A DNA stretch of 61,163 nucleotides, counting the filler. It is 8 parts of 8 records of this genome, joined end to end, with 100 filler letters (N's around TTAATTAATTAA, not from the genome) between each part and the next. Parts side by side here need not be neighbours in the genome. Positions count along the whole stretch, not along the records: positions 25,631 to 34,038 come from SRR31147125_8865; 7 more parts are not named here. The stretch is one strand, 5' to 3'. Position numbers and translations under genes: made by a program. The notes below the pieces were generated by a model. The model made no database searches, was not told the origin of the DNA, and saw nothing but the letters and a program-made list of their open reading frames with translations. Below, piece by piece: positions 5,137 through 51,376 of the stretch (within the stretch, counting starts at the first letter, position 1; each line of letters opens with the position of its first letter).

Positions 5137-5236
5137 NNNNNNNNNNNNNNNNNNNNNNNNNNNNNNNNNNNNNNNNNNNNTTAATTAATTAANNNNNNNN
5201 NNNNNNNNNNNNNNNNNNNNNNNNNNNNNNNNNNNN
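5137..5236. other. Artificial contig spacer
   Basis: 44 N + TTAATTAATTAA (stops in all frames) + 44 N. Confidence 0.99.
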
Positions 5237-10773: not shown

Positions 10774-10873
10774 NNNNNNNNNNNNNNNNNNNNNNNNNNN
10801 NNNNNNNNNNNNNNNNNTTAATTAATTAANNNNNNNNNNNNNNNNNNNNNNNNNNNNNNNNNNNNNNNNNNNN
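10774..10873. other. Artificial contig spacer
   Basis: N44-TTAATTAATTAA-N44. Confidence 0.99.
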
Positions 10874-16818: not shown

Positions 16819-16918
16819 NNNNNNNNNNNNNNNNNNNNNNNNNNNNNNNNNNNNNNNNNNNNTTAATTAATTAANNNNNNNNNNNNNNNNNNNNNNNNNN
16901 NNNNNNNNNNNNNNNNNN
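16819..16918. other. Artificial contig spacer
   Basis: N44-TTAATTAATTAA-N44. Confidence 0.99.
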
Positions 16919-25530: not shown

Positions 25531-25630
25531 NNNNNNNNNNNNNNNNNNNNNNNNNNNNNNNNNNNNNNNNNNNNTTAATTAATTAANNNNNNNNNNNNNN
25601 NNNNNNNNNNNNNNNNNNNNNNNNNNNNNN
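25531..25630. other. Artificial contig spacer
   Basis: N44-TTAATTAATTAA-N44. Confidence 0.99.
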
Positions 25631-25719
25631 TTCTTCACGATGTTGTCTGTTTCCATCTGAAGAATTCGCAGCTTAATGTTTTTTAGCTTATTTTCGTCAA
25701 GCTCTAAATTCGCTTCCAT
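25631..25719 (-). CDS. Small protein overlapping the helicase stop, 3'-truncated (not in the ORF track)
   Basis: GGAGG 9 nt before the ATG at 25719; reads MEANLELDENKLKNIKLRILQMETDNIVK and stays open to the contig end. Confidence 0.65.
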
Positions 25720-27877
25720 CGAAATCGTCCTCCATTTCTTCAGGTTTTATATTGTAAACATCTTGTATCTCGTTGATTAACTCATCGGAATCACGTGAAT
25801 TGAGGGCAATTCGACCGAATTCTTCAATACGGTTAAGTTCGCGCTTAGCCAATGCTCGACCGCAACTGTAGTCACTGGCGTAGGTATCTACTTCGTCCAA
25901 TGGCTTAATCAGGGTTACAAAGTCATAAATCACGGCGTATGGCTTATTGGCTGCCAGACGCAACACACGACCACGCCGTTGAATGTATTCCTTAGGATTG
26001 GTAGTGCTTGCCAGAATAAATGCTGTTCTGATACTGGGAATATTAACACCTTCATCTAAACATTTTATTGCAACGATGACTTGATACGGGTCTGCCTCGG
26101 CAAAGTGTTGCTTTATGATTTCACGTTCGGCGGCAGACTCATTGGATGTGAAGTGCGTTATTATCATGCCGAGATCATTGCCCAACAGTTTTGATACAGC
26201 AACAATTTGTCTTTCGCCGTAGTCGTCTGACGCAGTGCTGTCAGAATCGTAATCAAAGATACGGGTGGCGCCACAATAGACTAAAATATGAGTATCATCT
26301 TTATAAGGCTCAATCTGCTCTCGCAAGGCGGTTAACTTTTGCTTGGCTCCGGCAACGATGCGGGACCGTGCAAGTAAAAGAGTTTTACCACGTTCAGTGA
26401 TTTTTAACTCGCCGTGTTTGTTGAAATGACATTCACGAGAGATTTTGTATGAAAGATCTTTATAATTCTCAATCTCGTCTTCATCGAGATAAACTAAGAC
26501 AGGATGGTAGTAATATGGTGTAAGTTTGTTTTCGCGGATAGCGCGCTCCAGACTATACTCAATACACTTCTTACCAAAATATGATTTGAGGATTAGACTG
26601 CCCTGTGGATCGTTGTGTCGTTCAAGTGTTGCTGATAGCGCCAGACGATACTCAAACTTAGGGTTAAGGCTGAGACTCAAATGCTCAGAACCAAAGTTAT
26701 GGGCTTCGTCAACCATGACCAGAGTGCCGTCACCTAACTTATTTAACAACTGCTGCACATAAATGGAGGAAAAAGTAGCATTTGTAGTGACAAAACAGAG
26801 AGAGTCAATGACGCCAAGTTGAAAATCCAGCACATCATTTTCTAAACGCTTCTTCCAGTTCTTTTGAGGTGATGAGGAATACCCGATGGTGGGGCGCATA
26901 TTGAATTTGACTATATCCTCAACCCATTGATCCACCAAGTGCTGGAATGGGGCGACAATGATAATGGCTACCCGTTTCTTTATTTCAAACAGTTTGGCTG
27001 CTGCGCCAAGGCCAGTATACGTCTTGCCGGTGCCGGTAGCCATATCAAAAATGCCGCGGAAGTTATTATTCACCCAAGCATCTATGGCATCTTCTTGGTA
27101 TTCGTGGAGCTTAACGCTCCTGGGCACGAGTGGAACACCCGCAATCACAGGTGATAACTCGTATAGGTCTTCTTGCTCGAATTGGTCGATATCTAGCTGC
27201 TTGGCGGCCTCTTCAAACGGTACAAGTTTATCTCGAACTACGTTGGGAAAGTCCAACACAATGATGTTTTTCTCGCGGCATGCCCAGAGAGAGTCGAAGT
27301 CATCCTCTAAATCCTGGACACGCTGGGCATCTTCTACAACGAGTGAGTTGAAAACGACAATGGATTCGTAGTTGTTGTGAAAGGCGTTAATTGTTTCATT
27401 CATGGAGCCCGTAAACGCTAAGCGGTTTCCGTTCTCGTCATAGATGACCCCAATTTTTTCGTGATACATTCCTGTCGTCTTCTGAGGCGGAGTGAAAGCC
27501 ACTTTGATTTCAAGAATACCATTAGAAATCAGTTGAGAGAGCCAGCCAAGACGCTCTTTATCTGAATTGTTTTTGGGCTCACGCAACTCTCTGGCCAAAG
27601 AATTAGCGATAATTTTGCGTTCGTCATACCCCTGCTGAATTGCTTCTATATCTTCGGTTGAAAGAAGTGGAGAAACGATAAATCGAATCTTGCCACCATT
27701 TTTCACCAAACCAGCAATGCCTTTGGAAAGCTCAATCAATGCGGTGGATGAAAAAAAGCCTACGGCGCGTTTATAAAGCACCGATCTTTTCAAAACGGGC
27801 AGATAAAATTCTTTGACGATGTCGTTTTTATTAGTTTTGTAACTTCGGAGTAAGTCAAGCTCATCATATCCCATCAT
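25697..27877 (-). CDS. PLD-nuclease / SF2 (DEAH) helicase fusion; phosphorothioation-system restriction enzyme-like
   Basis: YHEKIG..FTGSMNET (PLD HxK-type), MATGTGKT (Walker A), VDEAH, LSAT, CLDEGVNIP and QRRGRVLR. Confidence 0.85.
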   Translation of the reverse strand: MMGYDELDLLRSYKTNKNDIVKEFYLPVLKRSVLYKRAVGFFSSTALIELSKGIAGLVKNGGKIRFIVSPLLSTEDIEAIQQGYDERKIIANSLARELREPKNNSDKERLGWLSQLISNGILEIKVAFTPPQKTTGMYHEKIGVIYDENGNRLAFTGSMNETINAFHNNYESIVVFNSLVVEDAQRVQDLEDDFDSLWACREKNIIVLDFPNVVRDKLVPFEEAAKQLDIDQFEQEDLYELSPVIAGVPLVPRSVKLHEYQEDAIDAWVNNNFRGIFDMATGTGKTYTGLGAAAKLFEIKKRVAIIIVAPFQHLVDQWVEDIVKFNMRPTIGYSSSPQKNWKKRLENDVLDFQLGVIDSLCFVTTNATFSSIYVQQLLNKLGDGTLVMVDEAHNFGSEHLSLSLNPKFEYRLALSATLERHNDPQGSLILKSYFGKKCIEYSLERAIRENKLTPYYYHPVLVYLDEDEIENYKDLSYKISRECHFNKHGELKITERGKTLLLARSRIVAGAKQKLTALREQIEPYKDDTHILVYCGATRIFDYDSDSTASDDYGERQIVAVSKLLGNDLGMIITHFTSNESAAEREIIKQHFAEADPYQVIVAIKCLDEGVNIPSIRTAFILASTTNPKEYIQRRGRVLRLAANKPYAVIYDFVTLIKPLDEVDTYASDYSCGRALAKRELNRIEEFGRIALNSRDSDELINEIQDVYNIKPEEMEDDFDGSEFRA

Positions 27878-27889
27878 GTATCACCTCAC

Positions 27890-28087
27890 TTACAGGACTT
27901 TTTGGTATTCCAATTGTTGCAAATATTCAACAGCAAGCTTCAGATCAAGTTCTGCAATTTTAATACAGACTCCACAGTACGCCTTGTCCTGCACGGGCGT
28001 AGGAACAATTTCTGTGACGATGTCATGGCTTTGTAGAATCTCCTCTGCTTCAAAGACAGCGCTGGTCTGATAAAACACAAAATGCAT
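27890..28087 (-). CDS. DUF3343-family putative Se/S carrier protein
   Basis: 65 aa with F..T..VFEAEEIL..IVPTP....CGVC, the DUF3343 signature. Its start directly abuts the desulfurase stop. Confidence 0.75.
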   Translation of the reverse strand: MHFVFYQTSAVFEAEEILQSHDIVTEIVPTPVQDKAYCGVCIKIAELDLKLAVEYLQQLEYQKVL

Positions 28088-29215
28088 TTATCTCAATCCT
28101 CTCAGTATTTCCAACAAAGCATCGATCTCGGCTTCGGTGTTCATAAAATTTAAGCTGATACGCACTGAGCCTGTTTCTACAGTTCCAAGCGTTTCATGCG
28201 CTAAAATCGCACAGTGAATTCCTCCACGAATACAAACGCCATTTTTGTCCAAGGTTGCTACCACATCACTGGAGGGTATACCCTTAACATTAAAGCAGAT
28301 GGTGGAGACTCTTTTTCGATCATGGTTATAAACGATCACATTATCTAAGCCAAGTAAACCTTTCACCAGACGCTCTATTAATTGCGTTTCCCGCTCATTT
28401 ATCTCGGCTAATCTTGGCTTGATATAGTCAATTGCTGTTTTCAGCGACCAAATGGCAGGCATGTTCAAGGTGCCGGATTCGTAGGCTTCGGGGAAAATAT
28501 CTGGGTTCACATAGCTTTCACCATGAATGCCGGTGCCGCCTTGCACAAGCGGTTGAATCGTTAAGGGTTCGCAGGAACATAGACCACCGACACCGGGCAA
28601 CGCCAATAAATCCTTGTGTCCGGTGAAAGCCAAGTAGTCGATATGGTCTCGCTCCATGTTGACCAGGCCTTTACCACCGCCCTGGGAAGCATCGACGAAT
28701 ACGATGATGGAGTGTTCATTGCAGATCTTGCTAAAGCGAGAATTAAAAACCAGTTGTCCGGTCAGGTTGCTTGCTAGGGTTACAGTTGCCAGCTTTGTAT
28801 TTGGCCTGATGTAGGTAACAAGTTCAGTTTCTGGATTGTCGAAAACACTTTCTGGCAATATGGTATAGTCGATAACGCCTTTTTGCTTCAACGTATGGAG
28901 CGGGCGCAATACTGCATTGTGTTCGTAGGAGCTAATTAGCACATGGTCGCCTGTGTGTAAGAACCCATCCAAAAACAAATTAATCGCTTCAGTTGAGTTT
29001 TTTGTGAATATGGCGTTAGTTTTTCCAGGAGCACCGAAAAAGTCAGTTACTGTTTTGCGGCTTTGATAAAGCATCCGAGAAGCCTGGATACCCAAAGAAT
29101 AGCTTCCGCGGCCAGGACTGGTACCAACCTCGCGTACATAGTATGTAAAGGCATCATAGACTTCTTCAGGTTTTATTCGAGATGTGGCAGCATTATCGAA
29201 GTAAATCATCGTCAT
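28088..29215 (-). CDS. PLP-dependent cysteine desulfurase (class V aminotransferase, group II SufS/CsdA-like); SspA/DndA role
   Basis: IYFDNAAT, EHNAV, VDASQ, FTGHK (PLP lysine), ESGTLN and RGGIHCA (catalytic Cys). Confidence 0.9.
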   Translation of the reverse strand: MTMIYFDNAATSRIKPEEVYDAFTYYVREVGTSPGRGSYSLGIQASRMLYQSRKTVTDFFGAPGKTNAIFTKNSTEAINLFLDGFLHTGDHVLISSYEHNAVLRPLHTLKQKGVIDYTILPESVFDNPETELVTYIRPNTKLATVTLASNLTGQLVFNSRFSKICNEHSIIVFVDASQGGGKGLVNMERDHIDYLAFTGHKDLLALPGVGGLCSCEPLTIQPLVQGGTGIHGESYVNPDIFPEAYESGTLNMPAIWSLKTAIDYIKPRLAEINERETQLIERLVKGLLGLDNVIVYNHDRKRVSTICFNVKGIPSSDVVATLDKNGVCIRGGIHCAILAHETLGTVETGSVRISLNFMNTEAEIDALLEILRGLR

Positions 29216-30889
29216 ACACCTCAAGAATCAATATTATCCGTGACGGCATTTTTTTGCCCGCCAATACCTGGCAAGTGATACAGCCGTTATAGAATTTTGC
29301 AACACATTTTGAGCACTCTGAAAGGTTTTGTTTACAACGAGTTTCATCAACAACATATCGTCCATCGCCCATGGTGTTGATTGCACCATAAGGGCAAACA
29401 GAATCGCAAGCGGAGCATCTGATGCAGTATTGATATTTCCTCAATTGGCATTTTAGGCGGTTGACCAACAGCAAGATGTCGGTGCCTTTAGTTGGTAATA
29501 CTTTAAGAACTGGGGTTCCCCAAGTGACTACAAGATCACAGAGCTTATGTTTGGGTGAAATCAAATCGCCACTATCATTTCTGATTTCTGCTTCAGTAAC
29601 TGTTATATAAGTTACATCTTCCTTATCAAAGATATCCAACTGGCCAAATGGCTTGAAGAATTCTAATACATCACGATTGATCTTTTTCTTAATGATAATA
29701 TTCCTAGCCCGATCTGACAGGTTGCATGCTGTATCGGTAATTGAAACATTGCGAATTTGAAGTCCACTGGCACCACGTCTGGTTTTCCACCGCCCATTTT
29801 CAATATAATCGTTGATATCTTCTTTTTCGGTCTTCTTGGCAAAGCAAATCAGTGCGTCCCTCCACTTTGCAGCAAGCTCTGGGAAATAAATATCTGTCAG
29901 CATAGAAGACCATTCTGAGTTGTTTGGGCAACACCAACAGCCGACCCGTTTATATCCCCAACGATATGCGTGATTGAATGCAGTTCCTTTATAGAGGATG
30001 TAAAGCCAGACGTCACAATCCGACCACTCAATGATCGGCATGGCATTGATTTGCGCTCCAATTTTTGAATGGCTTTGAGTGCGCTCATAGTTTTGACGTT
30101 CTCTAGATTCGCTACGACGAATTCCTAGGAAGGTCAAGCTATTACCGTTTAAGTTTTGATACTCAGTATTCAAGTTGCTAGTCTTAAAAATGGTACAGCA
30201 CCAGCGTTCAAATTTGCTGGGCGGTCCAAATATATCGCAAAGTTTAAAAAAATCATTATCGGTCTCACTAAGGATCATCGGTGTGAAAGGATTCTCGACC
30301 CGGAAATCCTGCTCAACATAGGTATGGGTACAAGGGAACTCCAAAGTGGTATCACCAAAATAGTGAATGACCGATTCGCTTTGCAAAGCATCACGCACTA
30401 CTCTACTTACAACGGTAGAGTCTTTCCCCCGGAAAAAGAAATAGTTGGCATATAACTCTGTTTGGAGTCTAATTTCAATTCTTCAATCAAAGATGAAGCA
30501 TATCCCTCAGCTTCATAAATAAGCTCTTTGATATATTGCTCATTGGCAGCAACAAACATATCGGCATGTGGAATGAGATCATCATTGTCAATGTTATTCC
30601 GCAAGTATTCGGCAATAACCAGATGCCTTTTGTTTTTATAAAAATCAATATAAGGCAGACGTATGCGTTTGCCGTCAATAAGATAATAACTGCTGCCAAG
30701 GTACCATACTTCGGAATTAGTTATATCCTGACCAAGAATATGCGAAAGTAATTTGCGCTCTTGCTTAAATACTGGATTGCAAACACCAGAATTTGATAAC
30801 GGTTCACAATCCGCACCGCACAACTTACATATATTATATTTTACAACTGGGATCTTGCAATGCGGACACCAATAAACCGTATTGGGCAT
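29193..30889 (-). CDS. PAPS-reductase-family PP-loop protein (SspD/DndC-like) with N-terminal Zn ribbon and C-terminal 4Fe-4S domain; split by a -1 frameshift at ~30425
   Basis: CPHC..CKLC at the N-terminus. SFSGGK|DSTVVS is restored by a one-base shift. Also DTTLEFP, RWCC, GIRRSES, RVGCWCCP and CIRCSACDSVC. Confidence 0.85.
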
Positions 30890-30890
30890 A

Positions 30891-33800
30891 TTATTTCCCT
30901 TCCATTATGTCATTCAATAACGACAGTAAAATCTGTACTTTATCATCATAAGAAACTGATAAACCGAAGTTGCCAAAAGTAGAAATTATTTTATTTTTGA
31001 CAGTTACACTTATATCAGAGAGACCAGTGTTATCAAAAACAACAGTCTTTTCTTCACCAGTGGCGGTGGAAAGCGTCATTTTAGTTTCACTGTCTTGCAG
31101 TTTAGCACTCATGACATAATTGTTGAGTTTGGTTATGACTTCTTCCAAGCGAGGTTTGAATTCTGCAATATATTTGTCACTCCAGTAAGTCAATTCGATG
31201 CCAGTAAGTAGTTTGGCTAGCTTGGAAATGATATCTTGGTCTGAGTTTTCTAACGCCATGTTGGCGACATAGTCCAGAAATGCGTTGGTATAGTAGTCAA
31301 AAGATTTTTGCCGCTTATCTGCCCAACTATTGAGGTATTCATGATGAAGCGTTTCTGCTAAGCTCACATTAGTATCGGCAGACAAAATATCGCACAAGTG
31401 ATATTTCAAATCTCTACACAGTTTATTTACAGCATCTCCCAACTCTTCTTTGATGCTGCTAATAGCATCAACGCTGGCAAGATAGCTGCCGGTTAATACT
31501 TTGACTTTTCCGAAAAAGAATTTGGAATAGCTGGAGTAGCTCTTTTCCATCATAGTACGGTAGGCTTTGGTTTGCTCAGAAACATAGTCCTCGGTAGTGC
31601 GCGCAAATTTCGATACGCTCTTATAATGCGCCATCATCGCATTATAAATAGCTTTTAGCCGGTTTTTAGAAAGGAGAGCCGTATCAATAAAACTACCAAA
31701 CAATTTCTCGAGTTGGTTGATATAAGTTAATTGTTCCTCGTTCCAATCAGCTACCGTGAAATTAAAATCATCAGGGCGCTTAATAATTTCGTCAATCAGC
31801 TCAGCGGTGATTTCCTGCTCGGTGCCATGACTGCTGATAATTAGCGATTTTTTATATGGAGACAAGACAAAAGCCAGAATTAACGATAAGTAACCATCGC
31901 GAAGTCCAAAAGGCGGCTTTTTTAGTATAGAATAGACTGTGCTAAACTCGACTATTCCTTTCTTTGCTTGACCGATTACTTCCTCGAAAAGCTCCTTCAG
32001 GGCTACCTGCGGGTGTTCGCCTGATGACAGGGCATTGACAGCATCACATTCGTCAACTGCAATAAATTCGTTTTTAGCCAAAACCGATCTTACGGCAATA
32101 TAATCTGGGGAAAGGTACTGCAACCCAAAATAAGTATTTGCCGGTTCACTGCTCAAAATTGCACTTATGGCATTTCTTTTTGCGGAAGTAATACTACCTG
32201 AAATAGTATTTTTGTTGATTAACTCGTTGTTGACCAGCAGGGTTCCTGGATAGGTCTCAAACATAACATCGCTAGCTAATTCTGCAACACGGTTCATTGA
32301 TGTAATTCCGCTTTTAACTTCACCGTTACATACGACGAAGATATCCGCAGAATCAATCCGCATCCAATCATCAATAGCAAAATCAATTTCGGCGGCAATT
32401 TCGCGCATGTGATACTGTAGCTCTTTTTCAAAGGCAGGGTCTTTTGCGACATACTTTGCCTTTTGGGTTTCAATGTATTGCGCAGCAATGTATTTTTTGG
32501 CCGATTCAACCAACGCAGAGCAATTGTTATTCACCCAGATTACACTGCGGGAAAGATTCCGAGAGGCTTCTATAACATCGGCAGCGCTCACATCAGTGTT
32601 CCCGAGCAGCATTACCAACACGCCGTCGTAATGGGCACCGAGTCGGGCTGTAAGGGTTTTGCGTGGCAAGTCATCAAGTGAAGCAAAAACCGGAATGAAC
32701 ACGCGAGTGATTTTATAGGCCCGGTTGTAGGCATTTGGATAAAGAACAAACTTAACAAAGTTGTCGTTCAAAACTTTAATAACAGCTTCTCCGCTGATTC
32801 GCACGCTTTCTTCGTCAATCATGGACTCAACATCAAAAATACTAGCATCAAAAAATTCATAACGGTCGTACGTGCCGGAATATTTTATGATTTTTTTATC
32901 GCAGAGCGCATCCAGGGCGTTTCCCAAAACATCTTTGGGGCAGTCAATAGTGCTTAGGATGGTACGCTTGTCAGAGACCAAAGCGCTAGAATCGTTGACG
33001 ATGCCAATCGTGGCAATGACCTTGAGAATTCTCACCTCCGGTGAATCATCAAAAGCATCACAGCGGTTTTTGGCAAATGCAGTTTGCAAATTCTTATACC
33101 ATTGGTAACTGTCATCGCTTTGCACAGCCTTAATGCTAGGTTCAAAATAATCATAAATATCGCTGATGCCGACAAAATGGAACTCACTTAACTCATGTTT
33201 AATTAAAAAACGGTATAAACTATTTTCTTCTTTGCTGGCCAAATATGTAAAAAAAGTCCGATCGTTTTGTGCCACTTTTTTAGATAGACGATCCAACGCA
33301 AACAGCGCGATGGGGTGTAATGGGAAGCCACCCTCAAAAGGATTGTCTTCGTGGGAGACATCGACTAAAAAGCCTTTGAAGTCCATAGCTTCTGCGTACA
33401 TACGATTAAGGCTTTCACGGTACTTGGTTTTGAAAGACTGCCAAACTGGTTCGTTCTTGATCAGAATACTGCGAATTAACGAGAGACACTGGTCTTGCTT
33501 ATTGTTAATAGAATCAGCCTTATAGCGACCCTCAACTTTCTTCCATTCAGCTACAATAGCTTTACCGTAGCGCTGGGTGTACTGACTTATCTCCTTATGA
33601 GAGACCAGAATAATATGGTTGTTACCATCGCTGTGGTCGCAATATTCTGCTAAATCCTGAATAGATTTAACCTTTATGTTCTTGATGTTATCTTCGATAT
33701 AGCGGCCAAATTCGTCGAACACGAATACAATACCGCTGTAGGTGTTAGCAACAGCCGTGGCGGCTTGCTTTAGAGTCTCGGACATGTTAGAAACTTCATA

Positions 33801-34038
33801 GACATACTTCACGCCGAAAGTCATGCCGGCAAATAGCTTGTCAAATGTTTTTTCGGCATGCGGATCAAAGTCTGCTAAGCTTTTTTGCAGCTCTGCTAGA
33901 TCGATATGTTTTTTATTACATACATCATTGAGGCGAGCAGAAGATTCGTTGCTCTCTTGCCACTGAGATAAAAGAGCTTGAGCTTGATCGTAAAAAGTTT
34001 TATAGCTAATCTTATACCCTTGCGCATCCAACTTTTTT
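30891..34038 (-). CDS. Large P-loop ATPase, SspC/BrxC(PglY)-like, 5'-truncated
   Basis: IVFVFDEFGRYIE (Walker B), EWKKVEGRY, GGFPLHP, AQNDRTFFTYL and KPPFGLRDG; 1 nt from the PAPS reductase start. Confidence 0.75.
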
Positions 34039-34138
34039 NNNNNNNNNNNNNNNNNNNNNNNNNNNNNNNNNNNNNNNNNNNNTTAATTAATTAANNNNNN
34101 NNNNNNNNNNNNNNNNNNNNNNNNNNNNNNNNNNNNNN
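34039..34138. other. Artificial contig spacer
   Basis: N44-TTAATTAATTAA-N44. Confidence 0.99.
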
Positions 34139-44888: not shown

Positions 44889-44988
44889 NNNNNNNNNNNN
44901 NNNNNNNNNNNNNNNNNNNNNNNNNNNNNNNNTTAATTAATTAANNNNNNNNNNNNNNNNNNNNNNNNNNNNNNNNNNNNNNNNNNNN
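44889..44988. other. Artificial contig spacer
   Basis: N44-TTAATTAATTAA-N44. Confidence 0.99.
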
Positions 44989-51276: not shown

Positions 51277-51376
51277 NNNNNNNNNNNNNNNNNNNNNNNN
51301 NNNNNNNNNNNNNNNNNNNNTTAATTAATTAANNNNNNNNNNNNNNNNNNNNNNNNNNNNNNNNNNNNNNNNNNNN
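51277..51376. other. Artificial contig spacer
   Basis: N44-TTAATTAATTAA-N44. Confidence 0.99.

What the first reader, a model, noticed from the sequence alone, without database searches (positions are those of the whole stretch)
25631..34038. Ssp-like DNA phosphorothioation/defence operon variant: ATPase, Zn/Fe-S PAPS reductase, SufS-type desulfurase, DUF3343, PLD-helicase, small protein
Seen: six co-oriented genes separated by 0-12 nt or overlapping, with intact motifs (Walker B DEFG and FPLHP; SGGKDS, RWCC and GCWCC; GHK and RGGIHCA; PTP..CG; HEK..GSMN plus DEAH). Known: a desulfurase plus a PP-loop PAPS-reductase-like protein plus a large ATPase is the core of SspABCD, DndACD and BREX type 4 phosphorothioation. 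Inference: this is a Firmicutes-type single-strand PT modification locus with its own sulfur-delivery pair and a nuclease-helicase effector, possibly an SspFGH-like arm. The DUF3343 and group II desulfurase are not part of the described SspABCD gene set as I know it. Both ends are truncated, so an SspB/DUF4007 gene upstream and an SMC-like ATPase downstream are predicted, not seen.
Basis: partly seen in the sequence, partly recalled or inferred. Interest (0 to 1): 0.85.

Follow-up and report, generated by a model that had tools for sequence, protein, structure and literature searches.

The report
Ssp-type DNA-sulfur marking joined to PbeABCD
This short contig is a piece of an anti-virus gene island of gut Clostridia, in which genes that put sulfur into the DNA backbone sit in one operon with a known nuclease-helicase defence module; both halves are known kinds, and only their pairing and two accessory features are unusual.

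Summary
The finding is one whole 8,408-bp contig (25631-34038). The window is eight contigs joined by N linkers, so its flanks are not neighbours. All six genes and all quoted motifs are present on the minus strand. The PAPS-reductase gene, however, is broken twice in the window by 1-nt homopolymer deletions, one inside SGGKDS. Contigs assembled independently from the best-holding run restore both frames, so these are probably assembly errors.

Twenty related loci from Clostridia show the full operon: SspB(DUF4007)-SspC-long BrxP-like PAPS reductase-group II desulfurase-DUF3343-PbeA-PbeB-PbeC-PbeD. The effector arm is therefore PbeABCD, not SspFGH. One relative carries DndFGH-like genes in its place.

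In a sample of Clostridia genomes, 5 of 9 with SspB and 5 of 10 with PbeA carry this pairing. I found no searchable paper describing an Ssp-Pbe pairing or DUF3343 in phosphorothioation. Two earlier notes of this scan report the same pairing on other DNA. Verdict: a new variant of a known kind. Function is inferred, not shown.

The parts
30891..34038 (-). SspC-like (BrxC-related) ATPase, 5'-truncated by the contig end. About 141 N-terminal residues, including the Walker A region, are missing relative to the 1190-aa L002 protein.
   Evidence: PADLOC SspC 2.5e-96 (profile 157-1051 of 1054) and BrxC 2.4e-37. tblastn to L002 SspC covers q142-1189 at 64% identity, reaching window 34037. DEFG and FPLHP are present. 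No Pfam hit.
29221..30889 (-). Long BrxP-type PAPS reductase (the SspD-equivalent): N-terminal Cys-rich Zn-ribbon-like domain, PP-loop domain and C-terminal ferredoxin-like Cys clusters. In the window it is split by two 1-nt homopolymer deletions (G run at 30426-30430, A run at 29249-29255).
   Evidence: PAPS_reduct 9.5e-23 and Fer4 3.7e-4. BrxP 4.7e-60 against SspD 9.6e-6. Frames. Alignments to relatives. X1 contigs carry an extra base behind +30425 and +29248.
28088..29209 (-). PLP-dependent cysteine desulfurase (SspA/DndA role), a group II enzyme of the EF2568/SclA-like family.
   Evidence: Aminotran_5 7.2e-72. PADLOC SspA and DndA both 1.3e-45. TIGR01977 8e-105 (350.9 bits, cut-off 377) and DndA TIGR03235 only 8.3e-34. 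H198-K199 and C333 are invariant in 15 sequences.
27890..28087 (-). DUF3343 / Se_S_carrier small protein (65 aa), a putative persulfide carrier.
   Evidence: PF11823 7e-11. PTP..D.AYCGV is invariant with Cys38 in 15 of 15 sequences. Present in 16 of 16 related loci that reach past the desulfurase. Model pLDDT 93, beta-alpha-beta-beta-alpha-beta fold.
25697..27877 (-). PbeA: HKD (PLD-like) nuclease domain fused to an SF2 helicase.
   Evidence: PADLOC PbeA 9.3e-237 (residues 5-696 on profile 2-680 of 682). PLDc_2 4.9e-10, ResIII 2e-21, Helicase_C 5.8e-13. TIGR04095 'DNA phosphorothioation system restriction enzyme' 1.2e-142, 476 bits, below its cut-off of 600. Helicase core matches archaeal XPB/RAD25 at 2.9e-21.
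25631..25719 (-). First 29 codons of PbeB (small protein), cut by the contig end. Its ATG overlaps the 3' end of pbeA.
   Evidence: Sequence. tblastn to the 59-aa L002 PbeB covers q6-37 at 81% identity.

Best explanation
The contig is the middle part of a nine-gene mobile defence island of Clostridia. The island joins two known modules in one operon.

(1) A phosphorothioate (PT) DNA-modification module of Ssp architecture:
- SspB/DUF4007, a DNA-recognising protein (lost here at the contig end).
- An SspC ATPase.
- A long BrxP-type PP-loop PAPS-reductase-like sulfurtransferase with Fe-S-type Cys clusters. It is BrxP without its fused DUF4007 domain.
- A dedicated sulfur supply, made of a group II (EF2568/SclA-like) cysteine desulfurase and a DUF3343 small protein with an invariant Cys.

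(2) The PbeABCD module: the PbeA HKD-nuclease/SF2-helicase and the start of PbeB are in the window, and the PbeC CxC-type ABC ATPase and PbeD lie beyond the contig end.

Inferred mechanism:
- The desulfurase takes sulfur from cysteine as a persulfide and passes it, probably through the DUF3343 cysteine, to the PAPS-reductase-like enzyme.
- That enzyme, guided by SspB and SspC, installs PT at specific sites of host DNA.
- PbeABCD then blocks DNA that lacks the mark, as shown experimentally only for the archaeal Dnd-Pbe system.

Shown here: gene identities, conserved order and module swapping. Inferred: the modification itself, its strandedness, the sulfur relay and PT-dependence of the Pbe arm. 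The two frameshifts in the PAPS-reductase gene are most likely assembly errors, so the gene is probably intact in the organism.
For: -
- Full operon in relatives: L002 (Pseudoflavonifractor intestinihominis isolate) has SspB (DUF4007 1.5e-57; PADLOC SspB 1.3e-44), SspC (4.1e-102), a 556-aa PAPS reductase (BrxP 2.6e-70), a desulfurase, DUF3343, PbeA, a 59-aa PbeB, PbeC (2.8e-112) and a 203-aa ORF.
- Counts in 20 related loci: SspB in 17 of 17 that reach upstream; DUF3343 in 16 of 16 that reach past the desulfurase; PbeA in 15 of 16 that reach past DUF3343; PbeC in 14 of the 15 that reach that far. The one locus without Pbe (L020) has DndF/G/H-like genes in the same position (1.1e-99, 1.5e-61, 3.9e-239). 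An interchangeable restriction arm at that site is what a modification-restriction pair predicts.
- The two halves reassort: L005 has SspC 62% and PbeC 46% identity to L002, while L015 has SspC 41% and PbeC 64%.
- Survey of the class of G001: PbeA in 10 of 399 scored genomes, and 5 of those 10 have Ssp genes adjacent. DUF4007 is in 9 of 401, and the same 5 of those 9 have Pbe adjacent.
- The canonical SspD in the same sample is a 268-aa protein (SspD 1.3e-109, BrxP 2.1e-11). The protein here scores the other way.
- Frame restoration in run contigs.
- Experimental precedents, read as passages: PbeABCD needs PT and halts viral DNA replication (PMC6459918). sspBCD-bearing gut isolates carry CpsC, and brxP plus brxC with a host desulfurase suffice for PT (bioRxiv 10.1101/2024.06.03.597175).
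Against: - No modification, expression or phage data exist for this locus or any relative examined.
- In the window itself SspB, the Walker A part of SspC, most of PbeB, PbeC and PbeD are not present. They are inferred from relatives at 64-89% protein identity.
- The PAPS reductase fails the canonical SspD test, so transfer of Ssp biochemistry (single-strand CpsCA) is uncertain.
- The PbeD-equivalent has no family hit in L002, and only a weak PbeD hit (5.3e-4) in the divergent L033.
- The role of DUF3343 rests on its Pfam name, an invariant Cys and gene position. Its model has a generic fold with no PDB match at E <= 0.001.
- Rakesh et al. (PMC10853773, section 16 read) argue that Pbe-type systems may act independently of PT.
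- The frame-restoring X1 contigs have low depth (5.9 and 3.2), and X1 may be the same sample as the assembly.
Confidence: 0.8

Rival explanations
1. The two modules are only neighbours. The Pbe arm (a CxC ABC ATPase-centred system) acts independently of the PT mark, for example as an abortive-infection nuclease held in check by the small PbeB protein. The Ssp-type module would then serve another purpose, such as epigenetic or redox functions.
For: Rakesh et al. propose this for CxC/Pbe systems, which also occur without any PT genes (PMC10853773, section 16). Xiong et al. found 320 of 553 PbeAC without dndCD within 10 kb (PMC6459918). In my sample, 2 PbeA loci (L038, L039) showed no hit to the Ssp, DUF3343 or DndFGH-like queries used. 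The Ssp and Pbe halves reassort.
Against: There is tight operonic linkage, with 0-12 nt gaps or overlaps. 15 of 16 loci keep Pbe directly after DUF3343, and the sixteenth puts a DndFGH-like restriction module in exactly that slot. In the archaeal system protection was lost when PT was abolished by a DndA Cys mutant (PMC6459918).
Confidence: 0.2
2. The locus is a decaying pseudogene cluster. The two frameshifts in the PAPS reductase are real, so no modification is made in this organism.
For: The window sequence as given has both shifts. Degraded Ssp loci do exist in the sample: SspB with an internal stop in G007 and G048.
Against: X1 contigs, otherwise identical to the window (record 6: 1752 nt, 0 other letters, 1 gap), carry the extra base at both sites. 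The relatives in X2 and X3 also keep the frame. Both sites are homopolymers. The other genes on the contig are intact at 64-84% identity to full-length relatives.
Confidence: 0.08
3. It is a BREX type 4 (brxPCZL) system, because the PAPS reductase scores best as BrxP and the ATPase also hits BrxC.
For: BrxP 4.7e-60 and BrxC 2.4e-37. BrxP is described as an SspD-SspB fusion and BrxC as an SspC homologue (bioRxiv 10.1101/2024.06.03.597175).
Against: The match to BrxP stops at profile position 512 of 779, so the fused DUF4007 part is missing and is encoded as a separate SspB gene. The ATPase scores far better as SspC (2.5e-96). No PglZ or BrxL hit appeared among the 10 L002 proteins scanned around the operon.
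Confidence: 0.03
4. The SclA-like lyase plus the DUF3343 'Se/S carrier' deliver selenium, not sulfur, so the system would make a selenium-containing DNA backbone modification.
For: The desulfurase also matches selenocysteine lyase SclA (2.8e-80, 270 bits). DUF3343 is linked to Sec lyase and YedF genes in Se-utilising organisms (PMC5322559).
Against: The SclA score is far below its cut-off of 525 bits. SelD scores over its cut-off in only 2 of 5 host genomes that carry the island. Lin et al. found no Se-specific DUF3343 subfamily.
Confidence: 0.02

Closest known systems
PbeABCD of Haloterrigena jeotgali A29 (Xiong et al. 2019, PMC6459918), equal to the CxC ABC ATPase-centred system of Rakesh et al. 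2024 (PMC10853773)
   Same: PbeA is an HKD nuclease fused to an SF2 helicase (full-length PADLOC match 9.3e-237). It is followed by a small protein, a DndD-like ABC ATPase (PbeC 2.8e-112 in L002) and a small fourth gene, in the same order and next to PT-modification genes.
   Different: The described system is paired with DndCDEA (double-strand PT) or with cytosine methylases. Here the partner is an Ssp-architecture module. The fourth gene has no PbeD or DndE family hit in L002. Only PbeA and 29 codons of PbeB lie in the window.
SspABCD single-strand PT modification system (Vibrio cyclitrophicus FF75), as described in passages of PMC8092258, PMC7464106 and bioRxiv 10.1101/2024.06.03.597175. 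The original Xiong 2020 paper is not held.
   Same: The gene order is SspB(DUF4007)-SspC-PAPS reductase with an adjacent desulfurase. SspB and SspC match the PADLOC Ssp models strongly.
   Different: The PAPS reductase is 556 aa and BrxP-like, not the ~270-aa canonical SspD. The desulfurase is a group II EF2568/SclA-like enzyme. There is an extra DUF3343 gene. The restriction partner is Pbe, not SspE or SspFGH.
BREX type 4 brxP/brxC PT module (Bacteroides salyersiae; bioRxiv 10.1101/2024.06.03.597175)
   Same: The PAPS reductase aligns to BrxP profile positions 101-512 (23-514 in L033), including the regions that flank the PP-loop domain. The ATPase is BrxC/SspC-like.
   Different: There is no fused DUF4007 on the reductase. 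No PglZ or BrxL was seen in L002's surroundings. It is paired with Pbe.
SspABCD-SspFGH and DndFGH restriction arms (Wang et al. 2021, PMC8092258)
   Same: They occupy the same position downstream of the modification genes. L020 carries DndFGH-like genes after an otherwise identical module, and G052 carries canonical SspBCD with SspFGH-like genes.
   Different: The window's effector gene is PbeA and has no match to SspF, SspG or SspH models.
Sec-lyase/desulfurase plus DUF3343 gene pairs of Se/S trafficking (Lin et al. 2015, PMC5322559)
   Same: A group II desulfurase/lyase sits directly beside a DUF3343 protein with a conserved Cys.
   Different: Here the pair is embedded in a DNA-modification operon, and it occurs in hosts with no SelD over the cut-off (3 of 5).

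Membership tests
SspABCD PT-modification system | SspB (DUF4007) DNA-recognising/nicking protein encoded with SspC and SspD | tested here: inconclusive
   Not in the window, because the contig ends inside sspC, and no hit elsewhere in the window. Present directly upstream in 17 of 17 related loci that reach that far. L002: DUF4007 1.5e-57, PADLOC SspB 1.3e-44.
SspABCD PT-modification system | SspC large ATPase | tested here: met
   PADLOC SspC 2.5e-96 over profile 157-1051 of 1054. The N-terminal ~141 residues are missing at the contig end.
SspABCD PT-modification system | Canonical SspD (short PAPS-reductase-domain protein) | tested here: not met
   SspD model only 9.6e-6 (window) and 8.1e-12 (L002), against BrxP 4.7e-60 and 2.6e-70. 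A canonical 268-aa SspD from the same class scores SspD 1.3e-109 and BrxP 2.1e-11. The PP-loop domain and function class are shared.
SspABCD PT-modification system | Cysteine desulfurase (SspA or IscS) | tested here: met
   Aminotran_5 7.2e-72 and PADLOC SspA 1.3e-45. PLP Lys and catalytic Cys are invariant. It belongs, however, to the group II EF2568 family.
SspABCD PT-modification system | Single-strand CpsCA phosphorothioate in host DNA | not testable with these tools
   Needs LC-MS/MS or PT-seq.
PbeABCD (CxC ABC ATPase-centred system) | PbeA: HKD nuclease fused to SF2 helicase | tested here: met
   PADLOC PbeA 9.3e-237, full length. PLDc_2, ResIII and Helicase_C hit. HEK...GSMN and DEAH are present.
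PbeABCD (CxC ABC ATPase-centred system) | PbeB: small protein directly after PbeA | tested here: met
   A 29-codon 5' fragment at 25631-25719, 81% identical to the 59-aa L002 PbeB.
PbeABCD (CxC ABC ATPase-centred system) | PbeC (DndD-like/CxC ABC ATPase) and PbeD (DndE-like) | tested here: inconclusive
   Beyond the contig end. PbeC is in 14 of the 15 related loci that reach that far (L002: PbeC 2.8e-112). The fourth gene is present in those 14 but without a family hit in L002. There is a weak PbeD hit of 5.3e-4 in L033.
PbeABCD (CxC ABC ATPase-centred system) | PT-dependent block of viral DNA replication | not testable with these tools
   Shown only for the archaeal Dnd-Pbe system (PMC6459918).
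BREX type 4 (brxPCZL) | BrxP with fused DUF4007, plus PglZ and BrxL | tested here: not met
   The BrxP match ends at profile 512 of 779. DUF4007 is a separate gene. No PglZ or BrxL hit among the 10 L002 proteins scanned.
SspFGH / DndFGH restriction module | Three-gene F-G-H cassette | tested here: not met
   No SspF/G/H or DndF/G/H hit for any window protein. Such a cassette replaces Pbe in L020.
DndABCDE | DndC with DndD-DndE pair as the modification core | tested here: not met
   DndC models reach only 4.9e-4 to 9.2e-8 and TIGR03183 5.3e-7, far below its cut-off. The only DndD-like protein is PbeC, which scores far better as PbeC.

The most novel reading that the evidence does not exclude
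A previously undescribed hybrid PT defence is the commonest Ssp context seen in my Clostridia sample. Its modification half is a 'split BrxP' module: free SspB/DUF4007, SspC, and a BrxP-type Fe-S PAPS reductase. This half is fed by its own persulfide relay, a group II EF2568-type desulfurase passing sulfur to the invariant Cys of DUF3343. That would be the first assigned biochemical role for DUF3343. The mark is read by PbeABCD. If so, Pbe can use Ssp-type (probably single-strand) PT as well as Dnd-type PT. This would account for part of the 'solitary' pbeAC loci (320 of 553) of Xiong 2019 and part of the roughly 84% of sspBCD loci reported with neither SspE nor SspFGH nearby in Wang 2021.
Probability: 0.45. 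Interest if true: 0.55.

Novelty: new variant of a known kind. Interest (0 to 1): 0.4.

Why it matters
PT-based defence is usually described as three pairings: Dnd-DndFGH, Dnd-Pbe, and Ssp-SspE or Ssp-SspFGH. Here Pbe is the partner of an Ssp-architecture module, and in the sampled Clostridia it is the most frequent partner (5 of 9 SspB-bearing genomes).

- That gives a testable explanation for many 'orphan' sspBCD and 'solitary' pbeAC loci.
- It offers cultivable gut isolates (for example the L002 strain) in which to ask how Pbe reads PT.
- The BrxP-like reductase with a separate SspB links the Ssp and BREX type 4 modification machineries.
- The always-present DUF3343 next to a dedicated desulfurase is a concrete candidate for a missing sulfur-relay step, and a first functional context for that family.

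For genome annotation, the practical point is that the apparent pseudogene is probably an assembly artefact.

Tried and rejected
- **Own genome:** no whole genome is held, so the missing ends could not be sought in the assembly. tblastn of all operon proteins against the whole window found nothing outside the contig.
- **Composition:** the tetranucleotide comparison of the 8 contigs was inconclusive. This contig correlates 0.77-0.85 with the others, which correlate 0.78-0.95 among themselves; GC is 0.421 against 0.345-0.420. I cannot say whether the contig belongs to the same organism as its window neighbours.
- **Complex prediction:** Complex prediction on desulfurase plus DUF3343 gave no verdict (median 0.31, mark 0.34). 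It is reported here only.
- **DUF3343 fold:** confident model but no PDB match at E <= 0.001, only generic beta-alpha-beta-beta-alpha-beta domains. A PDB sequence search with the profile gave 0 hits.
- **Other PDB sequence searches:** none for SspC. Only marginal hits for the reductase (PAPS reductase 5.9e-3, ferredoxin 8e-3).
- **Sequencing runs:** no RNA holder listed. X7 covered only 11 of 30 bins.
- **Rejected readings:** SspFGH-like arm, BREX type 4, canonical Dnd and selenium delivery (see rival explanations and membership tests).
- **Literature:** searches, and passages, gave no description of an Ssp-Pbe pairing or of DUF3343 in PT systems. The Xiong 2020 Ssp paper is not held, and supplementary tables were not available. 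These include Data S1 of PMC10853773, Data 3-4 of PMC6459918, and Tables S3-S5 of the bioRxiv preprint. Such loci may be listed there without being discussed in the text.
Full report
**What the window is.** The 61,163-base window is not one stretch of genome. It contains seven linkers of the form N44-TTAATTAATTAA-N44 (seen at both ends of the finding), so it is eight contigs placed end to end. The finding, 25631-34038, is exactly one contig of 8,408 bp. Its window 'neighbours' say nothing about it. No whole genome is held for the window, and no other contig in the window encodes any further part of the system.

**Check of the observation.** All six genes lie on the minus strand. Their family assignments are:
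- A large ATPase, open to the contig end: PADLOC SspC 2.5e-96, BrxC 2.4e-37, no Pfam hit.
- A PAPS-reductase-like protein: PAPS_reduct 9.5e-23, Fer4 3.7e-4, PADLOC BrxP 4.7e-60, SspD 9.6e-6.
- A class-V aminotransferase-fold desulfurase: 7.2e-72; SspA and DndA both 1.3e-45.
- A 65-aa Se_S_carrier/DUF3343 protein: 7e-11.
- A 726-aa PLD-helicase: PLDc_2, ResIII, Helicase_C; PADLOC PbeA 9.3e-237 over its whole length.
- The first 29 codons of a small ORF.

There is one correction. The PAPS-reductase gene is broken in the sequence as given. At the PP-loop the window reads TCC GGG GGA AAG ACT ..., which gives SGGKTLPL-stop, and KDSTVVSR continues in another frame. Six-way DNA alignment shows the window lacks one base at the second Gly codon. 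A second shift in an A7 run (29249-29255) replaces the conserved C-terminus ...AGKKNAVTDNIDS by an unrelated tail that overlaps the next gene.

**Are the frameshifts real?** One public run (X1) holds 84% of the contig's sampled words. Of its 18 laid Logan contigs, 16 are at least 99% alike to the window. They differ by exactly two indels: one extra base behind +30425 (depth 5.9, one contig) and one behind +29248 (depth 3.2). Each lengthens the homopolymer and restores the frame. Contigs of two runs holding ~90-95%-alike relatives (X2, X3) also keep both frames. All 15 full-length relatives aligned have one uninterrupted gene with SFSGGKDS. I therefore read both breaks as consensus errors of the assembly. 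Two caveats apply: depth is low, and X1 may be the very sample the assembly came from.

**The complete system, from relatives.** A scan of one genome per species with the 401-aa piece gave 20 loci, labelled Oscillospiraceae, Lachnospiraceae, Ruminococcus, Coprococcus and other Clostridia. One carries a Caulobacteraceae label. In L002 (Pseudoflavonifractor intestinihominis, Clostridia) the operon is:
- SspB (296 aa; DUF4007 1.5e-57)
- SspC (1190 aa; 4.1e-102)
- PAPS reductase (556 aa; BrxP 2.6e-70, SspD 8.1e-12)
- desulfurase (373 aa)
- DUF3343 (66 aa)
- PbeA (726 aa)
- PbeB (59 aa)
- PbeC (666 aa; PADLOC PbeC 2.8e-112, DndD 2.8e-33)
- a 203-aa ORF with no family hit

Across the 20 loci:
- SspB is present in 17 of 17 that reach upstream. 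The other three are contigs of 1.5-3.2 kb.
- DUF3343 is in 16 of 16 that reach past the desulfurase.
- PbeA is in 15 of 16 that reach past DUF3343.
- PbeC and the fourth gene are in 14 of the 15 that reach that far.

The window's last ORF is 81% identical to L002 PbeB. The single locus without Pbe, L020, carries DndF, DndG and DndH-like genes in the same slot (1.1e-99, 1.5e-61, 3.9e-239).

The two halves also have discordant similarities. L005 has SspC 62% but PbeC 46% identity to L002, while L015 has SspC 41% but PbeC 64%. This indicates that modification and restriction halves are exchanged as modules.

**How common is the pairing?** I sampled the class of L002's genome.
- PbeA (E <= 1e-60) occurs in 10 of 399 scored genomes; 2 further genomes could not be scored.
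- I fetched the surroundings of all of them and found Ssp genes beside PbeA in 5 of the 10 genomes. Three have the window's order B-C-D'-A-DUF3343 (G001, G375, G182).
- Two have a divergent lineage ordered D'-B-C-A (G383, G364). Its SspC is 23% identical, and in L033 there is no room for DUF3343 between the desulfurase and PbeA.
- Of the other five genomes, two showed DndFGH-like genes (L037, L041). One showed only a weak, 23%-identical PAPS-reductase hit (L040). One showed no hit to my Ssp, DUF3343 or DndFGH-like queries (L038). G357 has two loci, one of each of the last two kinds (L042 and L039).
- DUF4007 occurs in 9 of 401 genomes, and the same 5 are the Pbe-linked ones.
- The remaining four are: G052, a canonical SspB-SspC-SspD(268 aa; SspD 1.3e-109) with SspFGH-like genes; G236, D'-B-C-A followed by an unassigned 725-aa protein; and G007 and G048, two degraded loci.

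**What kind of parts these are.**
- The reductase is not a canonical SspD. It is twice as long. It has an N-terminal Cys-rich Zn-ribbon-like domain, the PP-loop domain with RWCC and GCWCCP, and two C-terminal four-Cys groups of ferredoxin type (Fer4). It aligns to BrxP profile positions 101-512 of 779 (23-514 in L033). That is BrxP without the C-terminal part, which the Dedon-lab preprint equates with DUF4007/SspB.
- The desulfurase is closest to the EF2568 family (TIGR01977, 350.9 bits, cut-off 377). It is nearer to SufS (1.6e-65) and SclA (2.8e-80) than to DndA (8.3e-34) or IscS (1e-28).
- DUF3343 has an invariant PTP..D.AYCGV motif. Its model is confident, with pLDDT 93.
- Lin et al. 2015 proposed the DUF3343 family as a Se or S carrier on the basis of linkage to Sec-lyase and YedF genes and a conserved Cys (PMC5322559, passages).
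- SelD scores over its cut-off in only 2 of 5 host genomes with the island, so I favour sulfur.

**Mechanism.** Gene identities and order are shown. The following steps are inferred from established Dnd/Ssp/BrxP biochemistry as cited:
- The desulfurase forms a persulfide.
- DUF3343 relays it.
- The PP-loop/Fe-S reductase, with SspB and SspC, installs PT on host DNA.
- PbeABCD acts on unmarked incoming DNA.

Experimental precedent exists only elsewhere. DndCDEA-PbeABCD of a haloarchaeon reduced plaquing about 10^4-fold, needed PT, and halted viral DNA replication without visible cleavage (PMC6459918, passages). Rakesh et al. argue from the HKD domain that cleavage is involved, and that the system may act independently of PT (PMC10853773, section 16 read in full). 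That rival cannot be excluded here.

**Comparison with what is known, and novelty.** Both modules are published and both are recognised by PADLOC models. What I did not find in print is their pairing. The searches were 'PbeABCD' (14 papers), SspB/PbeA/SspC, phosphorothioate+sspBCD+pbe (2 papers, both passing mentions by count) and CxC/ABC ATPase/DndE/PAPS reductase. Passages of the main papers couple Pbe only to Dnd genes or methylases. They couple Ssp only to SspE or SspFGH. In Wang et al., of 2,678 sspBCD loci, 196 coexisted with sspFGH (7.3%), 199 with sspE (7.4%) and 36 more with both. 'DUF3343' and 'phosphorothioate' share no paper. Supplementary tables and the 2020 Ssp paper could not be read, so unlabelled listings may exist.

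Two earlier notes of this scan (e1-1091269, e1-1180614) report the same Ssp-Pbe pairing on other genomes. I reached it independently before seeing them, and they are not independent evidence. I class the locus as a new variant of a known kind. The variant-level features are Ssp architecture with a BrxP-type reductase, a dedicated group II desulfurase-DUF3343 pair, and a Pbe restriction arm.

**Limits.** Nothing here shows modification, expression or defence. A third of the operon lies outside the contig and is inferred from relatives. The complex prediction for desulfurase plus DUF3343 gave no verdict. Fold and PDB searches added nothing.

Noticed in passing
window 5137-5236, 10774-10873, 16819-16918, 25531-25630, 34039-34138, 44889-44988, 51277-51376: The window is eight contigs joined by N44-TTAATTAATTAA-N44 linkers. 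Any finding in this window that spans a linker, or that uses 'neighbouring' genes across one, is unsafe.
   Followed up: yes
window 29249-29255 and 30426-30430: Both differences between the window and the X1 contigs are single-base homopolymer shortenings. Other contigs of this assembly may carry the same kind of error and show false pseudogenes.
   Followed up: partly
L015 11091-13260 and L016 (same coordinates): In two Lachnospiraceae loci, two extra genes are inserted between the PAPS reductase and the desulfurase. One is a 563-aa HATPase_c_3 protein (PADLOC MzaB 6.9e-24) and the other a 169-aa protein with a weak GIY-YIG hit (4.7e-3).
   Followed up: partly
L002 17523-20288: After the fourth Pbe gene come a 341-aa and a 239-aa ORF with no Pfam, PADLOC or NCBIfam hit, and then a WYL/WCX regulator. 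The 341-aa ORF recurs in 9 of the 14 loci that have PbeD, namely those whose PbeC is 64-79% identical to L002. It may be a further component.
   Followed up: no
L002 3115-4515; also L004, L015, L020, L052, and a fragment in L001: A MobA/VirD2-type relaxase (5.4e-33) lies within about 10 kb of the island in several loci. This suggests carriage on mobilisable elements.
   Followed up: no
L005 (same contig as L035, G375:C168): The record title calls this MAG Caulobacteraceae, yet the genome was drawn as a member of the class of a Clostridia genome, and its island is 62-77% identical to Clostridia loci. The label or the binning looks doubtful.
   Followed up: no
window 25933-27615, in run X2: One contig of a ~92%-alike relative skips 1,681 bases inside pbeA. 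Only 21 letters lie on the shorter side, so it may be an artefact or a deletion variant (table 5).
   Followed up: no
G001:C27:18410-19330 and G375:C9:27733-28656: The selD genes of two host genomes carry one in-frame TGA, as expected for selenocysteine-containing SelD.
   Followed up: no
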